Assembly (NCBI GenBank): GCA_964459145.1
Contig: CAYWKC010000001.1
Location: forward strand, 40,200-104,199
DNA from: an uncultured Candidatus Saccharibacteria bacterium
GTDB taxonomy: Bacteria; Patescibacteriota; Minisyncoccia; Phycocordibacterales; UBA12079
Direction of reading: 5' to 3'
DNA length: 64,000 nucleotides
Of this stretch, positions 53,633 to 61,091 are shown piece after piece. A program made the position numbers and the translations under genes. The notes below the pieces were generated by a model. That model was not told where the DNA came from and searched no databases. It worked only from the letters and a program-made list of their open reading frames with translations. Every line of letters begins with the position of its first letter. The first letter of the stretch is position 1.

Positions 53633-53657
53633 TAGGGTGTTTTTAGTACCAAAAGAG

Positions 53658-53729
53658 TAGCTCTACCGGGAATTGAACCCGGATTTCCGCCTTGAGAAGG
53701 CGATGTCCTAACCGTTAGACGATAGAGCC
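53658..53729 (-). tRNA. tRNA-Glu (CUC)
   Basis: Acceptor GGCTCTA/TAGAGCT, D-arm TCGTCTAACGGTTAGGAC, anticodon loop TTCTCAA, T-arm CCGGGTTCAATTCCCGG. Confidence 0.8.
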
Positions 53730-53951
53730 AAATATTATTTAAAAATTAAACTTGTTACTATATTAACATTTTTCTTAGAACATCGCCTTCTATGATGCTC
53801 TCTCTATTTTCTATCTCACTATCGTTCAATAAAGAAAATTTTTTCTTTCAGAAAAACCGGATGAAAAGCCAAGTAGCCTGTCTGCCGACAGAGGCAGGTT
53901 GGCTTTTCATTCCAATACCCATTAGACGATAGAGCCAAATACTCCTATATG
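53730..53951 (+). repeat. tRNA-Glu 5'-side element ending in a 20-nt copy of the tRNA 5' end plus flank
   Basis: 53932-53951 TTAGACGATAGAGCCAAATA matches 53715-53734. Hairpin GAAAAGCCAA...TTGGCTTTTC at 53873-53918 encloses a GC palindrome related to that at 14552. Confidence 0.45.
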
Positions 53952-54143: not shown

Positions 54144-54392
54144 TTATAAATCATTTAAAGCTGTTAATTCAGCATTATTATATTCTTCTTCCGTAATCTC
54201 TTCGCCACTCGTTAAAACTTCAAACACAACTTTATTACCATACGGAACTTCAGATTCTCCCTGAGTAGTTTTTATAAACCCGACATAAGGAGCGTCAACT
54301 CCTGTTGTTGGAACAGTCCGAATAAACTCCCCCAAACCTTTGGCAAACACCTTCTCTCTAAACGCCTTCATTGTTAAATGATTTTCTGACAT
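54144..54392 (-). CDS. hypothetical protein, last gene of the restriction-modification operon
   Basis: 82-aa ORF co-oriented with and downstream of the nuclease gene. Confidence 0.35.
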   Translation of the reverse strand: MSENHLTMKAFREKVFAKGLGEFIRTVPTTGVDAPYVGFIKTTQGESEVPYGNKVVFEVLTSGEEITEEEYNNAELTALNDL

Positions 54393-54491
54393 AATTTTTA
54401 TTTTCCCTCATAACCCAATCTCGCGTTAAAATAATCACAAAATTCACAATCTTTTCCTGACTCTGGCATCTGTTCACTGTCTAAACATTTT

Positions 54492-55151
54492 TTAATTTCT
54501 CCAATCATCCCCCCCCACCCAACTGTCATCCCCTTCATAGGCAATCAGCTTGACATCAAAATCAATCTTCCCATCAAACGCTTCCCGATCTAACTTCCCC
54601 GTGCAATAAACAAAGTAGCCCGTCTTAGAAACTTTCAACCCAGTCTTTCTCAATAACCACTGATAAACTTCCATTTGTCTTTTATAGCCGTCTTGCCATT
54701 CTTTATCTAATTCTACCACTGGTTCATCTTTCGCGGTCGCTTTATAATCAACGACAATATATTCCCCCTGACTATTTATCCAAAGATCATCAATCGCCCC
54801 GGTGATGACCAAACCAGTTTTTTTGTCCTCGTAACGAACACCTTTAAAATTCTCCCTCCAAATATCCAACTCCTCATGAGCGACCGGCCGAGCATCTACC
54901 CCATATTGCTCCTGTAAAGGATGTTGTTCCCCTTTCGCCCGATGAATATCAAATTCTTTTTTAAGTAGAGTATCAACCGCACTGTTGATAGCAAAAGGAA
55001 ACCCCGGCGGTCTCTTCGTTCCCAATTTATTATCAATATAAAAACAACGAGGACATTGCCGAAACAAATCTATCTTAGACCGACTCAGTTTCCATTGCTT
55101 TCCTCCGTAATTCCACGAAGCTTTTCTGTTGGAGTTATAATAATCTGACAT
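54492..55151 (-). CDS. PD-(D/E)xK nuclease, Cas4/RecB-like
   Basis: N-terminal LSRSKIDLFRQCPRCFY motif, GAIDDL and IVVDYKAT nuclease motifs. Confidence 0.6.
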   Translation of the reverse strand: MSDYYNSNRKASWNYGGKQWKLSRSKIDLFRQCPRCFYIDNKLGTKRPPGFPFAINSAVDTLLKKEFDIHRAKGEQHPLQEQYGVDARPVAHEELDIWRENFKGVRYEDKKTGLVITGAIDDLWINSQGEYIVVDYKATAKDEPVVELDKEWQDGYKRQMEVYQWLLRKTGLKVSKTGYFVYCTGKLDREAFDGKIDFDVKLIAYEGDDSWVGGDDWRN

Positions 55152-55181: not shown

Positions 55182-57419
55182 CTACAAGTTTAAATTTTTC
55201 CATTCTTTTAAATCCGAATCTTTTGCAATCTTCCACAAACCAGATACTTCTTTTATCAAACCCCCTTTAAATTTTTTATTTTCTTTTAACCAATTTTCTA
55301 ACGCTCTTGCTCTCATTCTTGCACCTTCTCCCTCCGCAGTAAAGCCACTTTTTGTATCCACAATCCAAATATTATTTTTGGTTTTTATAAACCAATCAGG
55401 AAAAAATAACCTTCCGTCCTCCCTTTTCACAGAAAAATTATCTGACCCATTATCCCCATTCTTATACCACCAAATAACACTTTTATTTTTCTCCAAATAA
55501 TCCACAAAACTTTTTTCATTTTTATTTTCTTTTTCTAAGTAACAAGGCTCTAAAGCACATTTTTTGCTTTCTATTTCTTTATACAAAGAATTATATCTAA
55601 CTTCTGACAAAGGAATTTTTATCGGTTTCGTTTCATCTATCCTTTTTTCTTTTTCATTTTCTTCTATTTTTCGTACCTCTTTATATTTCAAAAGGGCTTC
55701 ATTTATTATAGGAACCAGAGTACTATTTGATCCTTTCATTAAATCATTAACAATATAATGATAATATTCTTTCTTCTCCCCTATTTTTAAAATATCTTCA
55801 AAAAATACATTCAAAGCTGATTTTAATACTCCATAGGAACGAATTATTCCACCATATTTTGATTCTTCTTCCTGTTTAGACAATACTTCAATACAAAGTT
55901 TCTTATATAGTTTTTCTACATCTGGATAAGACATTTCTTGTCCAAAATCTTTTGCTTCTTTTAATCGTTTTATAAACTTATCATAATCAGTAATTTTTTG
56001 GTCAACTATTAAATTCAAATCTAAATGATTATTAAAATAAAAACCAGCTTTTTTTAAGGCTTCTTTGTTTTTAAAATATTTTTTTGCAACCTCAATAAAA
56101 GTGAATTGAAAAGTTTTTCCTAAATCATTATAACTAGTTCTTTGAGAGACAAAAGTTTTTAAATCAATTTGTTCTACATCTTTTTTTATTTTTGCTACAA
56201 GAAGTTTTGTTTCATTTGGTCCTATTCCTTGAAAATTTTTATAACTGTCTATAATTTCATTTTTTGTGTAAGTCGTATATAAATAAGAATGATTAAGGAT
56301 AGACTCTAAATATTTTTTTGCTTCTGGCATTCTCAAAACTCTTCCTAAAAGCTGAATTTGAAAGACTGGGCTCTTGGTTTCCCTATACATCAACATCACT
56401 TGGGCTCTAGGGCAATCCCATCCAGTCGCTGGGGCTTGTTTAAAAAGTAAAACATCAACTTTATTATTATGTTTTGTTATATTTTCTAAGTTTTCTTTAT
56501 CAGAACCAGTCAACCACACTGCTATTTTATTTTTTTCAACACCTTTTTCTTCTAAATACCCCAAAACAATATCTTTTTGTTTTCTCTCTTCTTGATCTTT
56601 CTTTTCATCATTAGGAAGTTGAATCATCAAAAGAGGATTAACATCAATATTATTTTTTTCATAAACTTTTTTTAATTCTTCTCTTTTTTTAAGAGCCAGA
56701 TCTAAAACATACCTATCTAAATCTTCTTCTTTTTTATCTTTAAAATCTTCTTTTGTTTGTGATAAAATACCCTCTTTAATAAGTCCTGCATTAACAACAT
56801 CTTCATAAGGTATATCTACATCAACATTCTCACTATCATGAGTAGCCGTTATTTTTAAAATGATTCTAGGGTTTATTTCTTTTATAACTTCATCAGCTAA
56901 TTGAGTTCTCACTTCCCTATGGGCTTCATCAATTATTAAAATAATATTTCTATCTTCTAATTTGGTTCTTTCTATCATTCCATCCCAAGTAATCTCTGTT
57001 TCTCCCTCTCTTCTTAATTTTCTTCCCTCTTTGTTCGCAGTTTTTATCTTAGACCAATTAAAAAACAAAATTTCATTTTGTTCTAAAATTTTACCTCTAC
57101 TTAAATCATTCAAATCAGTAATATCTATGGCAACATTTCCATCATAGTATTGCATAAATTTATTTTTACTTTGGGAAGCAAGATCTCCGTCTTTTGACCC
57201 TCCAATACTAACCCACAAAAAAGTTAAATCAGCCTCAACAAGTCTTGGGTCATTTGTAAGGTCTTTTATAAATTGAGCCATCATCACAGTTTTCCCCGAT
57301 CCTGTTGGAGCTTGAAATCTTATAGATTGCATTGATTCTTTTTTCCACTTATGAAGAAACTCGTCCATCAACTTTTCTGTAGCTTCTATTTGAAATGGTT
57401 TCAATATTATTTGTTTCAT
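55182..57419 (-). CDS. res: Type III restriction enzyme Res subunit (SF2 helicase plus PD-(D/E)xK)
   Basis: Motif I FQAPTGSGKT, DEAH box IIDEAHR, C-terminal FPD...IVDTK endonuclease motif. Confidence 0.8.
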   Translation of the reverse strand: MKQIILKPFQIEATEKLMDEFLHKWKKESMQSIRFQAPTGSGKTVMMAQFIKDLTNDPRLVEADLTFLWVSIGGSKDGDLASQSKNKFMQYYDGNVAIDITDLNDLSRGKILEQNEILFFNWSKIKTANKEGRKLRREGETEITWDGMIERTKLEDRNIILIIDEAHREVRTQLADEVIKEINPRIILKITATHDSENVDVDIPYEDVVNAGLIKEGILSQTKEDFKDKKEEDLDRYVLDLALKKREELKKVYEKNNIDVNPLLMIQLPNDEKKDQEERKQKDIVLGYLEEKGVEKNKIAVWLTGSDKENLENITKHNNKVDVLLFKQAPATGWDCPRAQVMLMYRETKSPVFQIQLLGRVLRMPEAKKYLESILNHSYLYTTYTKNEIIDSYKNFQGIGPNETKLLVAKIKKDVEQIDLKTFVSQRTSYNDLGKTFQFTFIEVAKKYFKNKEALKKAGFYFNNHLDLNLIVDQKITDYDKFIKRLKEAKDFGQEMSYPDVEKLYKKLCIEVLSKQEEESKYGGIIRSYGVLKSALNVFFEDILKIGEKKEYYHYIVNDLMKGSNSTLVPIINEALLKYKEVRKIEENEKEKRIDETKPIKIPLSEVRYNSLYKEIESKKCALEPCYLEKENKNEKSFVDYLEKNKSVIWWYKNGDNGSDNFSVKREDGRLFFPDWFIKTKNNIWIVDTKSGFTAEGEGARMRARALENWLKENKKFKGGLIKEVSGLWKIAKDSDLKEWKNLNL

Positions 57420-57420
57420 A

Positions 57421-59316
57421 TTAGTTGTTCAAACTCTTATATATTTTTAATATCGGTTCCGGAATATGTTCTACTTTAACATTTTTATATTCTGCATAAT
57501 CATTTTTAAAATCATTCCCCCCATAAGAAAAAATATAAATTTTCACTTCTTTCTTATCTAATATTTTTTTCTCCATTTCTGGTAAATTATCCAAATTCTC
57601 TCTAAAATAGATTCCCACAAATTTATCTTTTTCGTCAGTAAAAATTTGATAATACTTATTTTTAACGATTTCCTTAAATGTATCTTCCTTTAAAGCTATC
57701 ATTTGCCCAGCTTCGTGAGTAAACTCTAATTTCTTTTTATCAGAAACATTTTTAATATTTTCTACATCTACAAATTCAGTTTTAAAATATTCTAAAGCTC
57801 CTCCCAATCCCCCCACTTTTTCCCCATTGGGTTTTGTATACCCTTTTATAACTTTTTTAATTCTTGGTTGAGTTATCCTCCTACAAATTCCATACTCTTG
57901 AATTTCTTTTGCACTCATACCTTTTTCTTGCAATTCTTTTTCAAACCCATTCAATTCATTGTTGGTACACAAAATAAATCTCCTATTTCCTCCGTCTTCT
58001 TTGTTTAAATCTAAAACCGCATGTCCTGTTGTTCCAGAACCAGCCATAAAATCAAGAATTACTGAATTTTTCTTCTCAGAGATTTTTATTAACAATTTTA
58101 TTAAACCAATTGGTTTTGGTGATGTAAAATATGAATTTGAACCAAAAAGTTCCTCTATTTCTTTTGAAGCATTTTCATTTGTTGCCACATTATCAAACCA
58201 AGTATCTACTATCTGACCTTGAATCTCTGATAAAAATAATTTTCTATTAGGAACACCATTTTTTGAAACAACAAGTCTCCCGTCTTTTATATATTTATCA
58301 AATGTACTTTTTGAACATCTCCATTTTCCTTTTATAATCCTACCATCTGGCATCTTTATAGAAAATTCTTTGTTTTTAGAACTATCAGGTTGCAATAATG
58401 GAACCAAACGCCAATCACCCCGAGGATCATTATCAGGGTTTTTATATGTTTTTTTAACGTAATCTTCGTTTAAAGGAATATTATTTAGTTGACTCAAATC
58501 AATATTTTTTGTGTAGCAAAATATGTAATCATGAACACGAGCAACATTTTTAGATAATCTTGGTGGAGTTTTTGTTCTACGCCATAAAAAATTAGCTATA
58601 AAATTTTCTCCCCCAAAAATTCCATCGCAAAGAATTTTTAATTGGGCCATCTCATTATCATCAATAGATATAAAAATAACCCCATCATTTTTTAATATTT
58701 TTTTTGCCAACACTAACCTTTTTTCCATAAAAGAAAGCCACTTTGAATGTCTAAAAGTATCTTCTCTATCTACGAAAGAATCATTATAAATAAAATCTTT
58801 ATTGCCTGTATTATATGGGGGATCAATATAAATAACATCAATTTTATTTTTATGAGTATAATTTAAAACTTGCAAAGCATGATAATTATCTCCCTCAATT
58901 AAAATATTTTTAGGTTTATTTAAGTCTTTATCTTTAATTCGTTTATCTTCTTTAGAAACTAAAATTGGGGCTTCTGTTTTACATCTTTCAACGACTTCTT
59001 CCTTGTGGTCTTCCCAAACAAGTCCGTACTTTTTCTGCTTTTTTAAAAGTTGCAATTCTTTGATAAGTTCGTCTTTTGTATATTCTTCAAAATCTTTTTT
59101 ACTTACAGGACTTTTTTTGGCTAAATCAGAAACTAAACCCTTTTCTTTAATCTCTCTAATATGAGCCACTGTATATCTTCTGTCTTTTCTCTTCCCAATT
59201 CTATCAGGCACAATAAAACCCTCCTTTTCCCAATTCCGCAAAGTGTCCTCATGCACACCCAAAAGCTCCGCCACCTCCCCAATCTTATATAATTTTTCCC
59301 TATTTTCTTTTTTCAT
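57421..59316 (-). CDS. mod: Type III Mod-like DNA methyltransferase with N-terminal MerR-type HTH
   Basis: Beta-class order: motif IV IYIDPPYNTGN precedes motif I FMAGSGTTGHA. N-terminal LYKIGEVAELLGVHEDTLRNWEKEGF HTH. Stop and start overlap with res. Confidence 0.8.
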   Translation of the reverse strand: MKKENREKLYKIGEVAELLGVHEDTLRNWEKEGFIVPDRIGKRKDRRYTVAHIREIKEKGLVSDLAKKSPVSKKDFEEYTKDELIKELQLLKKQKKYGLVWEDHKEEVVERCKTEAPILVSKEDKRIKDKDLNKPKNILIEGDNYHALQVLNYTHKNKIDVIYIDPPYNTGNKDFIYNDSFVDREDTFRHSKWLSFMEKRLVLAKKILKNDGVIFISIDDNEMAQLKILCDGIFGGENFIANFLWRRTKTPPRLSKNVARVHDYIFCYTKNIDLSQLNNIPLNEDYVKKTYKNPDNDPRGDWRLVPLLQPDSSKNKEFSIKMPDGRIIKGKWRCSKSTFDKYIKDGRLVVSKNGVPNRKLFLSEIQGQIVDTWFDNVATNENASKEIEELFGSNSYFTSPKPIGLIKLLIKISEKKNSVILDFMAGSGTTGHAVLDLNKEDGGNRRFILCTNNELNGFEKELQEKGMSAKEIQEYGICRRITQPRIKKVIKGYTKPNGEKVGGLGGALEYFKTEFVDVENIKNVSDKKKLEFTHEAGQMIALKEDTFKEIVKNKYYQIFTDEKDKFVGIYFRENLDNLPEMEKKILDKKEVKIYIFSYGGNDFKNDYAEYKNVKVEHIPEPILKIYKSLNN

Positions 59317-59328
59317 TGTTTTGTTTTA

Positions 59329-59565
59329 TTAAAAAATTACAGCCAAAAGGGTTGTTATCAAAATAAGACCAATTCCTACCAACCAAGGATTATTCCAGTT
59401 AACTTTCCTAAATTTTATATTATCATAATACCAATTTTTAAAAAATAATTTTCTATGACAGACTGGATTAAATCTATATTCCCATATTTTCCTTTTTTCC
59501 CATTTACTACTGGAATCTTCAGGATTTTTATATTTAATGAATATTGTTTTTCCTTTATTATTCAT
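59329..59565 (-). CDS. hypothetical small membrane protein
   Basis: 78 aa with a C-terminal TM helix; in the operon upstream of mod. Confidence 0.35.
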   Translation of the reverse strand: MNNKGKTIFIKYKNPEDSSSKWEKRKIWEYRFNPVCHRKLFFKNWYYDNIKFRKVNWNNPWLVGIGLILITTLLAVIF

Positions 59566-59569
59566 TTTT

Positions 59570-60418
59570 TTATTTTTTGATATTATTTTTCTTTTTATCT
59601 AATATTTTTTTCATACTATCAGTAAATTCTTTATTTTCATCCTTTTCCCTTAAAACTTTTTTAAATAAAAAAGTTAATGATTTTTTTATTGCATCAGATA
59701 ATTCTAAACACTCATCATCATTTTCAGCATGCAAACCTTGACTTAACGAAGAATGTAAAATACCTAAAGGATTCACTCCATTAGGACAAAGAGAACTTGG
59801 AATTAAATCTTTAACTAAATCAATTTTTTCTTGAGCAACTCTTGTGGTTTTTGTTTTTTCAAAAGCTTCTTTATATTTCTCTAAATCTTCTCCTTTTAAT
59901 AAATCACTCGTGAACTTAAGAAGTTCATCAATGACACCTTCTACTATTCTACGAAAATAAGCAAAAGCACCTACACCATAGCCCTGAGATTCACAAATTA
60001 ACCCATTTTTATAATATTCAGTATATTCTTCTAAATTTTTCTCTAACTCTTTATCTATATCAATACTCCATGCTGGAATTTGCCCAACCTTCTCCATATA
60101 AATAATTTCTTCTGTTTCTTCTTCATTTTCTTTTTTTATCTCCGCCAAGCCAAAATTAACAAAAAATATTCTAAAGGAATTATTACACGCCGAACATTTA
60201 TATTTTAATCTAACTATCTTATTAGGAATCTTTTCCCATTCATCATAATCAACTTCGTCATATTTATTTATCATGTTAAAAGTCTGATCTGAATCACAAT
60301 TATCACAATGCATATGTATTGCTGGTTTAGGTAATTGACTTAATTCGTCCGACTTATAAAAATCTGTAGTAAATTTTTTATACAAAGGATATTCTTCTAA
60401 AAACTTTTTATTTGCCAT
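59570..60418 (-). CDS. hypothetical protein with N-terminal C4 zinc ribbon
   Basis: HCDNCDS...CSACNN four-Cys motif; otherwise helical, no recognised motifs. Confidence 0.45.
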   Translation of the reverse strand: MANKKFLEEYPLYKKFTTDFYKSDELSQLPKPAIHMHCDNCDSDQTFNMINKYDEVDYDEWEKIPNKIVRLKYKCSACNNSFRIFFVNFGLAEIKKENEEETEEIIYMEKVGQIPAWSIDIDKELEKNLEEYTEYYKNGLICESQGYGVGAFAYFRRIVEGVIDELLKFTSDLLKGEDLEKYKEAFEKTKTTRVAQEKIDLVKDLIPSSLCPNGVNPLGILHSSLSQGLHAENDDECLELSDAIKKSLTFLFKKVLREKDENKEFTDSMKKILDKKKNNIKK

Positions 60419-60432
60419 AATTTTATTTTTTA

Positions 60433-60675
60433 CTATCTAATTTTTCCATTTATATTATCTAATAAATATGTCATATTTTTTACTTTATCTTCTAAACTTT
60501 TTACTTCTTTGTGTAAATCATCAATTTTAGCCCAAGCTTGATAATATTCTGTAACTCCCACAACTCCACCACATGAAGAACATTGTATAAAGAAAAATTT
60601 ATATCTAGAATAATTAGGTGAATTTTCGGCTAACTCAAATCGAGTATTCCCACATTTTGTGCATTTTGAAACCAT
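60433..60675 (-). CDS. small zinc-ribbon protein with C-terminal coiled coil
   Basis: CTKCGN...CSSCGG; first gene of the operon. Extended -10 TGTGATATACT on the minus strand around plus 60735-60750. Confidence 0.4.
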   Translation of the reverse strand: MVSKCTKCGNTRFELAENSPNYSRYKFFFIQCSSCGGVVGVTEYYQAWAKIDDLHKEVKSLEDKVKNMTYLLDNINGKIR

Positions 60676-60977
60676 ATTTTTATTTAAATTAACTTCCTAA
60701 TAATCTCTTATTTATTAAAGAATTTTTATCACTACTGCTAGTATATCACAAAGCACCCCGAAATGCAAGCATTCTCTGAATTTTCATAACTTATCGAGGT
60801 CAAATCCATTTCCACCTCTTCGATGGGTCGCCGATGAGACAACTACCCCAAAAAACCTCACCTCACAAACCCCCTAAAACAAAATCTTCGATTTTGTTCG
60901 GGCGAACATCAAAGATGTTTTAGCCCCACCCAACTTGGTACCTTTTTCAAACGGTCGTTCAAAAAGGGTACCTATTA

Positions 60978-61006
60978 AAAATAGGAGTGCTTCAAGCACT
61001 CCTATT
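60978..61006. terminator. perfect hairpin terminator after murJ
   Basis: AAATAGGAGTGCTT-caa-GCACTCCTATTT. Confidence 0.55.
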
Positions 61007-61045
61007 TAAAACTATCAACTTCCCCATCCATCCAACCTCCTCACA

Positions 61046-61091
61046 ATTCAGTACTCTGACTACTAAATTTACAGTAGTCGGAGTACTGAAT
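61046..61091. repeat. 19-bp-arm inverted repeat directly 3' of murJ
   Basis: ATTCAGTACTCTGACTACT-aaattt-ACAGTAGTCGGAGTACTGAAT. Confidence 0.5.

What the first reader, a model, noticed from the sequence alone, without database searches (positions are those of the whole stretch)
57421..59316. Type III Mod methyltransferase with an N-terminal MerR-like HTH
The first about 60 aa (LYKIGEVAELLGVHEDTLRNWEKEGFIVPDRIGKRKDRRYTVAHIREIKEKGL) form a MerR-type helix-turn-helix ahead of the beta-class methyltransferase core (DPPY then FxGxG). Canonical Type III Mod proteins lack a DNA-binding regulatory domain. A fused HTH could provide autoregulation that a separate controller protein supplies in other restriction-modification systems.
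Basis: inference. Interest (0 to 1): 0.5.

Follow-up and report, generated by a model that had tools for sequence, protein, structure and literature searches.

The report
Type III methylase with fused regulator domain
A restriction-modification methyltransferase carries a small MerR-like DNA-binding domain at its front end. Comparison with about 100 related loci shows this domain travels with a conserved repeat sequence in the operon's promoter, so the enzyme most likely controls its own operon.

Summary
ORF 57421-59316 (-) encodes a 631-aa Type III Mod. Residues 9-58 form a MerR-type winged HTH that scores above the Pfam cut-offs for MerR_1, MerR and HTH_17. A roughly 20-aa flexible linker joins it to a normal beta-class methyltransferase, and a Res gene follows directly.

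The fusion is recurrent: dozens of relatives have it, while sister Mods at 55-59% identity lack it. The HTH is as conserved as the catalytic core (70% vs 73%), whereas the target-recognition domain is shuffled (21%). So the HTH does not read the methylation site.

The same HTH module also heads Type I HsdM proteins in many Patescibacteria. Their promoters carry a strongly enriched tandem direct repeat, ACCTATGAnnACCTATGA, next to the -35. Fused Type III operons carry a diverged relative, with core TAAVYTAKGAAA: 10 of 14 fused loci have it against 0 of 33 unfused loci. It occurs exactly once in this 64-kb window, at 60782-60793, 13 nt upstream of the operon's -35. A second, similar copy lies at the transcription start.

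Best reading: a 'regulatory methyltransferase' that autoregulates, probably represses, the operon by BldC-like binding to direct repeats. This is not a classical MerR palindrome. The evidence is comparative only; no binding has been shown. It is a new variant of a known principle.

The parts
57421..59316 (-). mod: Type III modification methyltransferase (631 aa) with an N-terminal MerR-type wHTH
   Evidence: ORF. Pfam N6_N4_Mtase plus MerR_1/MerR/HTH_17. PADLOC MTase_III E 2.5e-102. PDB Mod homologues 6k0w, 7dsu, 4zcf.
59143..59292 (-). Winged helix-turn-helix (aa 9-58): beta-alpha1-alpha2-beta-hairpin wing-alpha3
   Evidence: Pfam. AlphaFold model with pLDDT about 84 in this stretch. Foldseek: MerR-family DNA-binding domains; BldC at rmsd 2.3-2.6 A over about 51 aa and 29-32% identity. 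PADLOC mad1 E 9.7e-12. 70% mean pairwise identity across fused Mods.
59083..59142 (-). Flexible linker (aa 59-78) between the HTH and the Mod N-terminal helix
   Evidence: Low pLDDT (61-63), no secondary structure. Lower conservation (51%). Unfused Mods begin just after it.
58132..58608 (-). Target-recognition domain (aa 237-395), a shuffled module
   Evidence: 21% mean identity among fused Mods. 73-79% identical to the TRDs of unfused P0027, P0029, P0036 and P0051.
55182..57419 (-). res: Type III restriction subunit (745 aa), start 1 nt after the mod stop
   Evidence: Pfam ResIII, SWI2_SNF2, Helicase_C. PADLOC REase_III E 1.1e-20. Motifs GSGKT 40-44, DEAH 164-167, TAT, QLLGR, and C-terminal PD...VDTK 674-690.
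60778..60800 (-). Candidate operator O1: ACCTCGATAAGTTATGAAAATTC. The core TAAGTTATGAAA (60782-60793) lies 13 nt upstream of the -35.
   Evidence: Only match to TAAVYTAKGAAA in the 64-kb window. The 16-mer GATAAGTTATGAAAAT is identical in L002, L081 and L163. Core present in 10 of 14 fused and 0 of 33 unfused Mod loci. Top shared 12-mer family. Coordinates.
60720..60733 (-). Candidate operator O2: AGTGATAAAAATTC, a 12/14 copy of O1 located just downstream of the -10, around the expected transcription start
   Evidence: Direct repeat D1. Coordinates. -10/TSS-proximal box-like sites also occur in L001, L002, L081, L160, L163 and L166 (permissive pattern, suggestive only).
60740..60768 (-). Predicted operon promoter: -35 TTGCAT (60763-60768), 17-nt spacer, extended -10 TGaTATACT (60740-60748)
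   Evidence: Read from the sequence. It is not listed by the consensus scan because the -35 matches only 3 of 6 positions. L163 has a homologous layout.
60433..60675 (-). First operon gene: 80-aa zinc-ribbon and coiled-coil protein, function unknown
   Evidence: ORF. Only weak zinc-ribbon or Lar-like hits below cut-off.
59570..60418 (-). Second operon gene: 282-aa protein with CxxC pairs, no family match
   Evidence: Not detectably related to the DUF4145 proteins that hold this position in L161 and L166.
59329..59565 (-). Third operon gene: 78-aa protein with a C-terminal hydrophobic helix; its stop lies 12 nt before the mod ATG
54492..55151 (-). Cas4-like PD-(D/E)XK nuclease gene downstream of res, apparently frameshifted at a G-run near its 3' end
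   Evidence: Pfam PDDEXK_1 E 3e-11. PADLOC Cas4 E 7.7e-8. An alternative frame continues to 54398 and holds the C-terminal Cys cluster.

Best explanation
The gene encodes a Type III Mod subunit that also acts as the transcription regulator of its own operon, a 'regulatory methyltransferase'.

A short MerR-type winged HTH (aa 9-58) lacks the MerR dimerisation coiled coil. It is tethered by a flexible linker of about 20 aa to an otherwise ordinary beta-class adenine methyltransferase.

Inferred mechanism. Mod works as a dimer, so each complex carries two tethered HTHs. These bind head-to-tail, in the manner of BldC, to a direct-repeat-type operator at the operon-leading promoter. O1 lies at 60778-60800, just upstream of the -35. 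O2 lies at 60720-60733, at the transcription start.

Occupancy rises as Mod accumulates and feeds back on transcription of the whole unit: three small upstream genes, mod, res and a Cas4-like nuclease. I consider repression more likely than activation, for three reasons. The related promoters have perfect TTGACA -35 boxes that directly abut the box. Second sites overlap the -10 or TSS. The two experimentally studied analogues, the SsoII-type MTases and RptR, are both repressors.

What is shown: domain identity, recurrence of the fusion, conservation, independence from the TRD, and the statistical association of the box family with HTH-bearing methyltransferase operons and with their promoters.

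What is inferred: that the HTH binds the box, the stoichiometry, and the sign of regulation.
For: (1) Domain. MerR_1, MerR and HTH_17 all score above cut-off. A profile matches the MerR, CueR, TipA, TnrA, CarH and BldC DNA-binding domains over about 47 aa only. The model is a confident wHTH followed by a disordered linker, and superposes best on BldC-DNA structures.

(2) Accessory, selected module. Dozens of fused relatives exist, sister Mods lack it, and one relative carries a decayed remnant. HTH identity is 70%, against 73% and 64% for the catalytic core and 21% for the TRD. The window's TRD is shared with unfused Mods.

(3) The same module is fused to Type I HsdM. 77 of the 80 best genome loci are HsdM fusions, and 10 of 10 scanned have HsdM_N plus N6_Mtase.

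(4) HsdM operator. Exact ACCTATGA occurs at 6.85 per kb in -200..0 against 0.036 per kb elsewhere, always on the gene strand and mostly as pairs 10 bp apart. De novo EM converges on TAACCTATGAAAACCTATGAA at 28.7 bits. 68 of 77 loci have the 8-mer, and 56 of 77 have a phased pair, against 2 pairs in 1.8 Mb elsewhere. The pair-to-(-35) distance falls in two classes, 4-5 nt and 14-15 nt. In a held-out set, 16 of 16 loci have it. Where a small gene precedes hsdM, the pair moves to the operon start.

(5) Type III. The core TAAVYTAKGAAA occurs once per locus on the operon strand in 10 of 14 fused loci, and 7 of those are followed within 6 nt or less by TTGAC[AT]. It occurs in 0 of 33 unfused loci. 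Composition predicts 0.16 and 0.25 hits respectively. Seed-free 12-mer enumeration ranks this box family first.

(6) The window as a held-out case. There is a single match in 64 kb, at the operon promoter, spaced 15 nt from '..GA' to the -35, as in the second HsdM class. A second copy lies at the TSS.

(7) The box and promoter are retained while the first genes of the operon differ between loci.

(8) Precedents. BldC binds direct repeats head-to-tail (PMC5859096). N-terminal-HTH regulatory MTases exist in Type II systems (PMC3874152, PMC12707154). RptR represses a Type I island through direct repeats (PMC12255303). mad1 is a stand-alone relative at the head of the MADS operon (10.1101/2023.03.30.534895).
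Against: There is no experimental or structural evidence that this HTH binds the box.

The HsdM-trained two-box PWM does not score any Type III promoter above background. The HsdM-trained single-box model transfers only weakly (MWU p = 0.005; promoter box is the top hit in 6 of 14), and the pair model does not transfer (p = 0.1). The kinship of the two box families therefore rests on a shared 12-nt core that I defined after seeing the data.

The Type III core pattern was derived from the fused loci themselves. Individual k-mer p-values of about 1e-4 would not survive correction over all k-mers.

Fused Mods may form one clade, so part of the fused/unfused contrast could reflect shared ancestry of the promoters.

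Two fused loci (L085, L164) show no box, and two (L003, L165) have only one-mismatch versions.

No unfused HsdM control was available.

In the window the -35 is weak (TTGCAT) and O1 sits 13 nt upstream of it, a position that also suits activators. O2 differs from the core consensus.

Unsupervised EM with random seeds failed to recover the Type III box.
Confidence: 0.62

Rival explanations
1. The HTH is an auxiliary DNA-handling domain of the enzyme rather than a regulator. It would act as a non-specific or weakly specific DNA clamp that raises affinity, helps loading or sliding of the Mod2Res complex, or extends target recognition.
For: MerR-type and BldC-type domains make few base-specific contacts (PMC5859096). 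The wing is rich in invariant arginines: R39, R43, R46, R47. The module sits on the DNA-binding subunit of two ATP-dependent translocating enzyme types. It is also attached to many unrelated large proteins.
Against: The HTH stays constant while TRDs are swapped, and the window's TRD works without an HTH in other Mods. Most Mods and HsdMs do without it. This view does not explain the box family found specifically at the promoters of HTH-bearing operons.
Confidence: 0.15
2. The promoter box is real but is bound by something else, such as a host factor, a sigma or UP-type promoter element, or one of the small co-transcribed proteins. Its link to the HTH would then be phylogenetic coincidence, and the HTH would serve another purpose such as protein-protein contacts or anchoring to another locus.
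For: Cross-family PWM transfer is poor. Fused Type III Mods are closely related to each other. The window's operon begins with an uncharacterised zinc-ribbon protein that could itself bind DNA.
Against: The first operon genes differ between loci while the box persists. In most HsdM loci the HTH-MTase is itself the first gene. The box occurs only once in the 64-kb window, so it is not a general promoter element. Two unrelated MTase lineages share only the HTH and a related box.
Confidence: 0.13
3. The HTH is an activator. Mod would bind upstream of the -35 and recruit RNA polymerase, giving positive feedback like the low-concentration mode of C proteins. Sites at the TSS would add repression only at high levels.
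For: O1 in the window, and the 14-15-nt class of HsdM loci, lie upstream of the -35, a classical activator position. The window's -35 is poor at 3 of 6. Classical MerR proteins are activators.
Against: Most related promoters have perfect TTGACA boxes abutted by the box at 1-6 nt, which predicts steric competition with sigma. Classical MerR activation needs a site between -35 and -10 with a 19-20-bp spacer. Here the spacer is 17 bp and no site lies inside it.
Confidence: 0.1

Closest known systems
Regulatory Type II methyltransferases with an N-terminal HTH (M.SsoII, M.Ecl18kI, M.EcoRII, M.MspI class)
   Same: The modification enzyme carries a fused N-terminal HTH, binds an operator at its own promoter and autoregulates (PMC3874152; PMC12707154). 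This is the same logic: the 'antitoxin' enzyme senses its own level.
   Different: Those are Type II C5-cytosine MTases with divergent M and R promoters. Their HTH is not of the MerR/BldC winged type, and their operators are described as sites between overlapping promoters. Here the host is a Type III Mod (and Type I HsdM in relatives), the whole system is one co-directional operon, and the candidate operator is a direct-repeat box. I found no Type III or Type I precedent in the reviews searched.
BldC (Streptomyces), PDB 6AMA/6AMK
   Same: A MerR-like wHTH without the coiled coil or effector domain that binds tandem direct repeats head-to-tail (PMC5859096). It gives the tightest structural superposition and highest identity to the model: rmsd 2.3-2.6 A, 29-32% identity. 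It is also found by the sequence profile.
   Different: BldC is a free-standing 68-aa developmental regulator. Here the domain is fused to an enzyme that is itself dimeric. BldC repeats and the boxes found here are unrelated in sequence.
RptR, repressor of Type I RM defence islands (PMC12255303)
   Same: It regulates a Type I RM operon with embedded defence cargo and a terminal metallopeptidase, through direct repeats in the promoter. L028 has the same island layout.
   Different: RptR is a separate small all-helical dimer with no close structural homologue, so it is not a MerR-type wHTH. It recognises TAGCTA inside 9-bp repeats. It is analogous, not homologous.
Mad1 of the MADS methylation-associated defence system
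   Same: Best defence-database match to aa 7-61 (PADLOC mads_1, E 9.7e-12). It is a small protein encoded first in an operon containing a methyltransferase. It is dispensable for defence and classed with 'widespread regulators' (10.1101/2023.03.30.534895).
   Different: It is stand-alone rather than fused. Its DNA target and role have not been tested. MADS is a different eight-gene system.
Canonical Type III Mod (EcoP15I 4ZCF; 6K0W; Mbo45V 7DSU)
   Same: Homologous methyltransferase core with DPPY before motif I and a central TRD. It is partnered by a Res helicase-nuclease.
   Different: The canonical Mods have no N-terminal HTH. Alignments start at query residue about 88 or later.
Controller (C) proteins of Type II RM systems
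   Same: A dedicated HTH feedback regulator of RM gene expression acting at operators near the -35 (PMC3874152).
   Different: C proteins are separate Xre-type dimers that bind palindromic C-boxes.

Membership tests
Type III restriction-modification system (Mod subunit) | Beta-class amino-methyltransferase: motif IV (DPPY) N-terminal to motif I (FxGxG-type), with the TRD between them | tested here: met
   DPPY at 165-168; motif I DFMAGSGT at 422-429; variable region 237-395 between them. Pfam N6_N4_Mtase E 1.9e-40.
Type III restriction-modification system (Mod subunit) | Sequence homology to characterised or solved Type III Mod proteins | tested here: met
   6k0w Mod E 6.7e-61, Mbo45V 2.3e-45, EcoP15I Mod 2.6e-39. 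PADLOC MTase_III E 2.5e-102.
Type III restriction-modification system (Mod subunit) | Adjacent co-directional res gene encoding an SF2 helicase-type ATPase with a PD-(D/E)XK nuclease motif | tested here: met
   res at 55182-57419 starts 1 nt after the mod stop. ResIII and Helicase_C; REase_III E 1.1e-20; GSGKT, DEAH, PD...VDTK. Caveats: it has no PDB sequence match at E <= 0.01, and at 745 aa it is shorter than EcoP15I Res.
Type III restriction-modification system (Mod subunit) | Hemi-methylation of an asymmetric site and ATP-dependent cleavage needing two inversely oriented sites | not testable with these tools
   Needs methylome data or biochemistry.
MerR family transcription regulators (classical) | N-terminal winged HTH (alpha1-alpha2-wing-alpha3) matching the MerR models | tested here: met
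   MerR_1 at 48.7 bits against 21.6; MerR at 40.9 against 28.2. Profile hits to MerR, CueR, TipA and BmrR. Fold confirmed.
MerR family transcription regulators (classical) | Long C-terminal coiled-coil dimerisation helix and effector-binding region | tested here: not met
   The Pfam match covers profile positions 1-47 of 69 only. After alpha3 comes a disordered linker and then the Mod N-terminal helix, which unfused Mods share.
MerR family transcription regulators (classical) | Palindromic operator inside a -35/-10 spacer of 19-20 bp | tested here: not met
   The spacer is 17 bp, and no palindrome lies at 60700-60770.
BldC-like / Xis-like monomeric MerR-type wHTH | wHTH alone, without a dimerisation or effector domain | tested here: met
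   Best superpositions are to BldC, with rmsd 2.3-2.6 A and TM-score 0.67-0.78 normalised to the target.
BldC-like / Xis-like monomeric MerR-type wHTH | Binds tandem direct repeats head-to-tail | tested here: inconclusive
   10-bp-phased direct repeats are associated with the module at HsdM promoters, and a two-part box at Type III promoters. Proteins with 2-14 tandem copies of the module exist. Binding itself has not been shown.
Regulatory methyltransferase (HTH-MTase autoregulator) | HTH fused to the N-terminus of the modification enzyme | tested here: met
Regulatory methyltransferase (HTH-MTase autoregulator) | Cognate operator at the system's own promoter | tested here: inconclusive
   A candidate box at 60778-60800 is unique in the window and shared with 9 other fused loci but with no unfused locus. 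The pattern was defined post hoc and binding is untested.
Regulatory methyltransferase (HTH-MTase autoregulator) | MTase-dependent change in promoter activity | not testable with these tools
   Needs reporter assays.

The most novel reading that the evidence does not exclude
A portable pair, consisting of a BldC-like wHTH and its 10-bp-phased direct-repeat operator, acts as a common regulatory plug-in. It has been grafted onto the methyltransferase subunits of both Type I and Type III restriction systems, mainly in Patescibacteria.

Because the DNA-binding domain is tethered to the enzyme, operator occupancy would report the pool of free methyltransferase complex. When incoming unmodified phage DNA titrates the complexes away, the operon would be derepressed together with the variable defence cargo embedded in it (TIR/8xMP, SMODS, AAA_15, DUF4145, and this window's three small genes).

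In other words, the restriction enzyme would double as the infection sensor for a co-transcribed second line of defence.
Probability: 0.12. Interest if true: 0.8.

Novelty: new variant of a known kind. Interest (0 to 1): 0.55.

Why it matters
Little is known about transcriptional control of Type I and Type III restriction systems. Textbook control of these systems is post-translational, or works by phase variation of mod. The first dedicated Type I regulator, RptR, was described only in 2025.

If confirmed, this would extend the 'regulatory methyltransferase' principle from Type II enzymes to the ATP-dependent restriction systems. It would define a concrete operator: ACCTATGA pairs for HsdM, and a TAAVYTAKGAAA-type box for Mod. 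That operator can be used to predict promoters and regulons in uncultured Patescibacteria. It would also explain why variable defence genes sit inside these operons.

There is a practical annotation point as well. Databases name some of these enzymes 'MerR family transcriptional regulator'. Many HsdM gene models carry a spurious 'MKTYEHLTLYL' extension that is really the operator and the -35 box read as protein.

Tried and rejected
1. None is present apart from a trivial AT-rich one at the RBS.

2. A classical MerR mechanism with the site inside an over-long spacer. Rejected: the spacer is 17 bp and there is no coiled coil.

3. The HsdM operator is identical in Type III loci. Rejected: the window has no exact ACCTATGA, and the 24-nt HsdM PWM scores all Type III promoters below zero.

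4. Random-seed EM on 3-kb upstream regions of fused Type III loci. Uninformative, because it converged on neighbouring tRNA genes and A-rich sequence. I replaced it with exhaustive k-mer enumeration.

5. The window's 282-aa protein is a DUF4145 protein like those in the same position in L161 and L166. No detectable similarity.

6. An unfused hsdM control within the fetched loci. None was found, only 16 further fused ones.

7. The fused architecture in cultured phage or plasmid records. Absent: only stand-alone MerR-like regulators and IS607-type transposase HTHs match.

8. A known RNA in the hairpin-rich leader. None was found; only the tRNA-Glu downstream.

9. RptR as a homologue. Rejected, because it has a different all-helical fold.

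10. A residue-to-base specificity covariation between HTH variants and box variants. Inspected by eye only; no clean pattern, so nothing is claimed.
Full report
**1. The observation**

The - strand ORF 57421-59316 encodes 631 aa.

Pfam places three overlapping HTH models on residues 9-59, all above their curated cut-offs. These are MerR_1 at 48.7 bits against 21.6, MerR at 40.9 against 28.2, and HTH_17 at 34.4 against 27. N6_N4_Mtase falls on 159-448 with E 1.9e-40. NCBIfam shows the same picture: HspR, ZntR and CueR N-termini, plus adenine MTases.

DPPY (165-168) precedes motif I (422-429). Motif I is DFMAGSGT here, not a literal FxGxG, but it lies in the invariant column of the family. Solved Type III Mods align only from residue about 88.

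**2. It is a Type III system**

PADLOC gives MTase_III at E 2.5e-102. The next gene, 55182-57419, starts 1 nt after the mod stop. It has ResIII, SWI2_SNF2 and Helicase_C domains, matches REase_III at E 1.1e-20, and carries GSGKT, DEAH and a C-terminal PD...VDTK motif. It has no PDB sequence match.

A Cas4-like PD-(D/E)XK gene follows at 54492-55151. Three small uncharacterised genes precede mod on the same strand, at 60433-60675, 59570-60418 and 59329-59565. The intergenic gaps are 4-14 nt, so mod is the fourth gene of the unit.

**3. The HTH is a selected, modular add-on**

A search of 5.8 billion proteins returns dozens of relatives with the MerR + N6_N4_Mtase architecture at 44-69% identity. 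Sister proteins at 55-59% identity lack the first 70 or so residues. One source names a fused protein 'MerR family transcriptional regulator'.

The alignment shows the HTH joined to a helix (YTKEELIKELQLLKKQKKYGLVWE) that unfused Mods also possess. One relative, P0046, carries a decayed remnant of the HTH.

Mean pairwise identity among 21 fused proteins, by region:
- HTH: 0.70
- Linker: 0.51
- MTase N-lobe: 0.73
- TRD: 0.21
- Motif-I lobe: 0.64
- C-terminal domain: 0.67

The window's TRD is 73-79% identical to the TRDs of unfused Mods but about 30% identical to those of its nearest fused relatives. The HTH is therefore under constraint as strong as the catalytic core, and it is independent of the methylation specificity.

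**4. Fold**

An AlphaFold model of residues 1-119 gives beta(9-11)-alpha1(12-19)-alpha2(23-32)-beta-hairpin(39-49)-alpha3(50-58) at pLDDT about 84. A low-confidence linker follows (59-75), then the helix 81-96.

Foldseek returns only MerR-family DNA-binding domains. The tightest superpositions and highest identities are to BldC on DNA: 6AMA and 6AMK, rmsd 2.3-2.6 A over about 51 residues, 29-32% identity. E-values are weak, as expected for a 50-residue domain. The sequence profile hits MerR, CueR, BrlR, TipA, TnrA, CarH and BldC over the same 47 or so residues and never the coiled coil.

BldC is a MerR-like protein without a coiled coil that binds direct repeats head-to-tail (PMC5859096).

**5. 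The same module heads Type I methyltransferases**

I scanned one genome per species with the HTH + linker alignment. This gave 303 confirmed relatives. Among the 80 kept, only three are Type III fusions. The other 77, almost all from Patescibacteria, match only the HTH at 45-68% identity.

Their host ORFs are uniformly about 560-580 aa. All 10 that I scanned are HsdM_N + N6_Mtase preceded by MerR_1, MerR and HTH_17. L028 is a complete hsdM-hsdS-hsdR system. Two unrelated methyltransferase classes, gamma and beta, have therefore recruited the same domain.

**6. An operator for the Type I fusions**

Upstream of these hsdM genes lies a conspicuous tandem repeat, ACCTATGAwAACCTATGAA, abutting a TTGACA -35 box.

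- The exact 8-mer is about 190-fold enriched in -200..0: 6.85 per kb against 0.036 per kb. It is always on the gene strand and is mostly present as pairs 10 bp apart.
- Where a small gene precedes hsdM, the pair sits about 410 bp upstream, at the head of the operon.
- EM from random seeds converges on this motif at 28.7 bits.
- 68 of 77 loci have the 8-mer. 56 of 77 have a phased pair, against 2 pairs in 1.8 Mb elsewhere.
- The distance from the pair to the -35 falls into two classes one helical turn apart: 4-5 nt in 35 loci and 14-15 nt in 10 loci.
- Sixteen further fused loci, not used to define the motif, all carry it.
- Some loci have a second pair between the -10 and the start codon.

The conserved 'MKTYEHLTLYL' extension in many gene models is this element read as protein.

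**7. The Type III fusions carry a related but distinct box**

I state the negative result first. The window has no ACCTATGA. The 24-nt HsdM PWM scores every fused Type III promoter below zero. A de-replicated single-box HsdM model separates fused from unfused Type III loci only weakly: medians 8.6 against 6.0 bits, MWU p = 0.005, and the pair model gives p = 0.1.

I then collected 14 fused Type III loci. In these, mod is usually not the first gene. Variable genes precede it, including AAA_15, DUF4145, ThsB-TIR + 8xMP, and unknowns.

At the operon-leading promoters there is a shared element:
- ACCTCGCTAAATTAGGAAAcTTGACA in L161 and L167.
- tCTAAATTAGATAAGTTATGAAAAT in L002 and L081.
- ACCTCGATAAGTTATGAAAAT in the window.

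Its 12-nt core, TAAVYTAKGAAA, also fits box 1 of the HsdM operator (TAACCTATGAAA).

The core occurs exactly once on the operon strand within 3 kb upstream of mod in 10 of 14 fused loci, and never on the other strand. In 7 of those 10 it is followed within 6 nt or less by TTGAC[AT]. Two more loci have one-mismatch versions. None of 33 unfused Mod loci has it; restricted to loci with at least 1 kb of upstream sequence the count is 0 of 22. Composition predicts 0.16 and 0.25 hits for the two sets.

Because I defined the pattern on the fused loci, I added two less circular tests.
- The window as a held-out case: there is one match in 64 kb (0.71 expected anywhere), and it lies at 60782-60793 on the operon strand in the promoter. 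The 16-mer around it is identical in three other loci whose first genes differ.
- Seed-free enumeration of all 12-mers with up to one mismatch: the most widely shared 12-mers among fused loci are variants of this box. TAAGTTAGGAAA scores 8 of 14 against 0 of 22, and TAAATTAGGAAA scores 7 against 0. These p-values would not survive correction on their own.

Random-seed EM failed.

**8. Promoter anatomy in the window**

On the - strand, the order is as follows:
- The murJ stop.
- A series of strong hairpins at 60878-61091, one of which (60979-61007) has a T-run.
- O1 at 60778-60800.
- 13 nt of spacer.
- -35 TTGCAT at 60763-60768.
- A 17-nt spacer.
- Extended -10 TGaTATACT at 60740-60748.
- O2, AGTGATAAAAATTC, at 60720-60733. 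This is a 12/14 copy of O1 around the expected start site.
- AGGAAGT.
- ATG at 60675.

The consensus scanner does not list this promoter, because the -35 matches only 3 of 6 positions. The spacing from O1 to the -35 (15 nt counted from '..GA') matches the second spacing class of the HsdM loci.

**9. Mechanism**

*Shown:* a MerR-type wHTH without a dimerisation helix is fused through a flexible linker to Mod. The module is conserved and independent of the TRD. Operons whose methyltransferase carries it have a box family at their leading promoter.

*Inferred:* the HTH binds those boxes. Both Mod (in Mod2Res) and HsdM (in M2S) are present as two copies per complex, which is established knowledge of these enzymes. 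Two tethered HTHs could therefore occupy two 10-bp-phased half-sites head-to-tail, as BldC does. Occupancy would feed back on the operon.

I favour repression, for three reasons. Most related promoters have perfect -35 boxes directly abutted by the box. Secondary sites overlap the -10 or the TSS. The characterised analogues, the SsoII-type MTases (PMC3874152, PMC12707154) and RptR (PMC12255303), are repressors. Activation is not excluded, especially in the window, where the -35 is poor.

Negative autoregulation would let the operon fire on entry into a naive cell and then hold the potentially toxic complex at a low level.

**10. Relation to what is known**

Regulatory MTases with an N-terminal HTH are established for Type II systems. 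I found no description of such a fusion for Type III or Type I in the literature I could search. That library lacks most subscription journals, so absence is not proof.

RptR (2025) is a functional analogue for Type I islands, but it has a different fold. PADLOC matches the HTH to mad1, the dispensable first gene of MADS, which its authors class with widespread regulators.

The module is widespread. 7,343 representative proteins match it, including stand-alone 58-90-aa forms and proteins with 2-14 tandem copies. The fused architecture is absent from the cultured phage and plasmid collections.

**11. Verdict**

The new elements are the candidate operator, its direct-repeat (BldC-like) nature, and the sharing of the module between Type I and Type III systems. 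I classify it as a new variant of a known kind. Interest is 0.55, and confidence in autoregulation is about 0.6, pending a binding or reporter experiment.

Noticed in passing
window 54398-54562 (- strand): The Cas4-like PD-(D/E)XK ORF (54492-55151) stops just after a G-run (GGGTGGGGGGGG). Another frame continues to 54398 and encodes ...KKCLDSEQMPESGKDCEFCDYFNARLGYEGK*, which supplies the C-terminal cysteine cluster expected of Cas4. This is a homopolymer frameshift, due either to assembly error or to phase variation.
   Followed up: partly
window 53657-53939: tRNA-Glu (53657-53729, -) lies just downstream of the operon. An exact 18-nt copy of its 5' end sits 207 nt away at 53922-53939 (0.05 expected). 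The operon core has 26-31% GC against 32-38% in the flanks. Both suggest an island inserted beside a tRNA gene. tRNA genes also adjoin fused operons in L162, L163, L166 and L167.
   Followed up: partly
window 60878-61091: A series of strong inverted repeats lies between murJ and the operon promoter: a 19-bp stem at 61046-61091, a perfect 14-bp stem plus T-run at 60979-61007, a 17-bp stem at 60937-60972, and a 9-bp stem at 60878-60898. They are probably terminators or insulators. There is no Rfam match.
   Followed up: partly
L001, L028, L160-L166: HTH-methyltransferase operons hold variable defence-type genes inside the transcription unit. L001 has ThsB-like TIR + 8xMP. L160 has an AAA_15 ATPase. 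L161 and L166 have DUF4145. L162 and L165 have a Bac_DnaA_C protein between mod and res. L028 has SMODS between hsdM and hsdS plus a YgjP peptidase, with a serine recombinase next door.
   Followed up: partly
L021, L026, L028, L031-L035 and many others, about 100 nt upstream of the HTH: Many HsdM ORFs can be extended by a conserved 'MKTYEHLTLYLESDR...' peptide. This is the operator (ACCTATGAAAACCTATGAA) plus the -35 box (CTTGAC) read as protein. It is a gene-model artefact that may be present in public annotations.
   Followed up: yes
P0121, P0122, P0140, P0156, P0206 and others: The HTH module occurs as 2-14 tandem copies in single proteins. It also occurs as twin N-terminal copies on 800-960-aa proteins with tail-fibre-like parts (Peptidase_S74 or G2) and no other recognisable domains.
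   Followed up: partly
L164:5400-5560: The long uncalled region upstream of this fused mod contains two copies of GCTCGGTATCTGCAAGAGACCCGAAAC and a purine-rich run (GGAGGAAGTGGAGGAAGTGAAAGAAGTGAAGG). This locus has no recognisable box.
   Followed up: no
window 54144-54392 (- strand): An 82-aa ORF at the end of the operon has a weak, sub-threshold match to the Tis1 immunity protein family (E 0.0011, 19.5 bits against a cut-off of 27).
   Followed up: no
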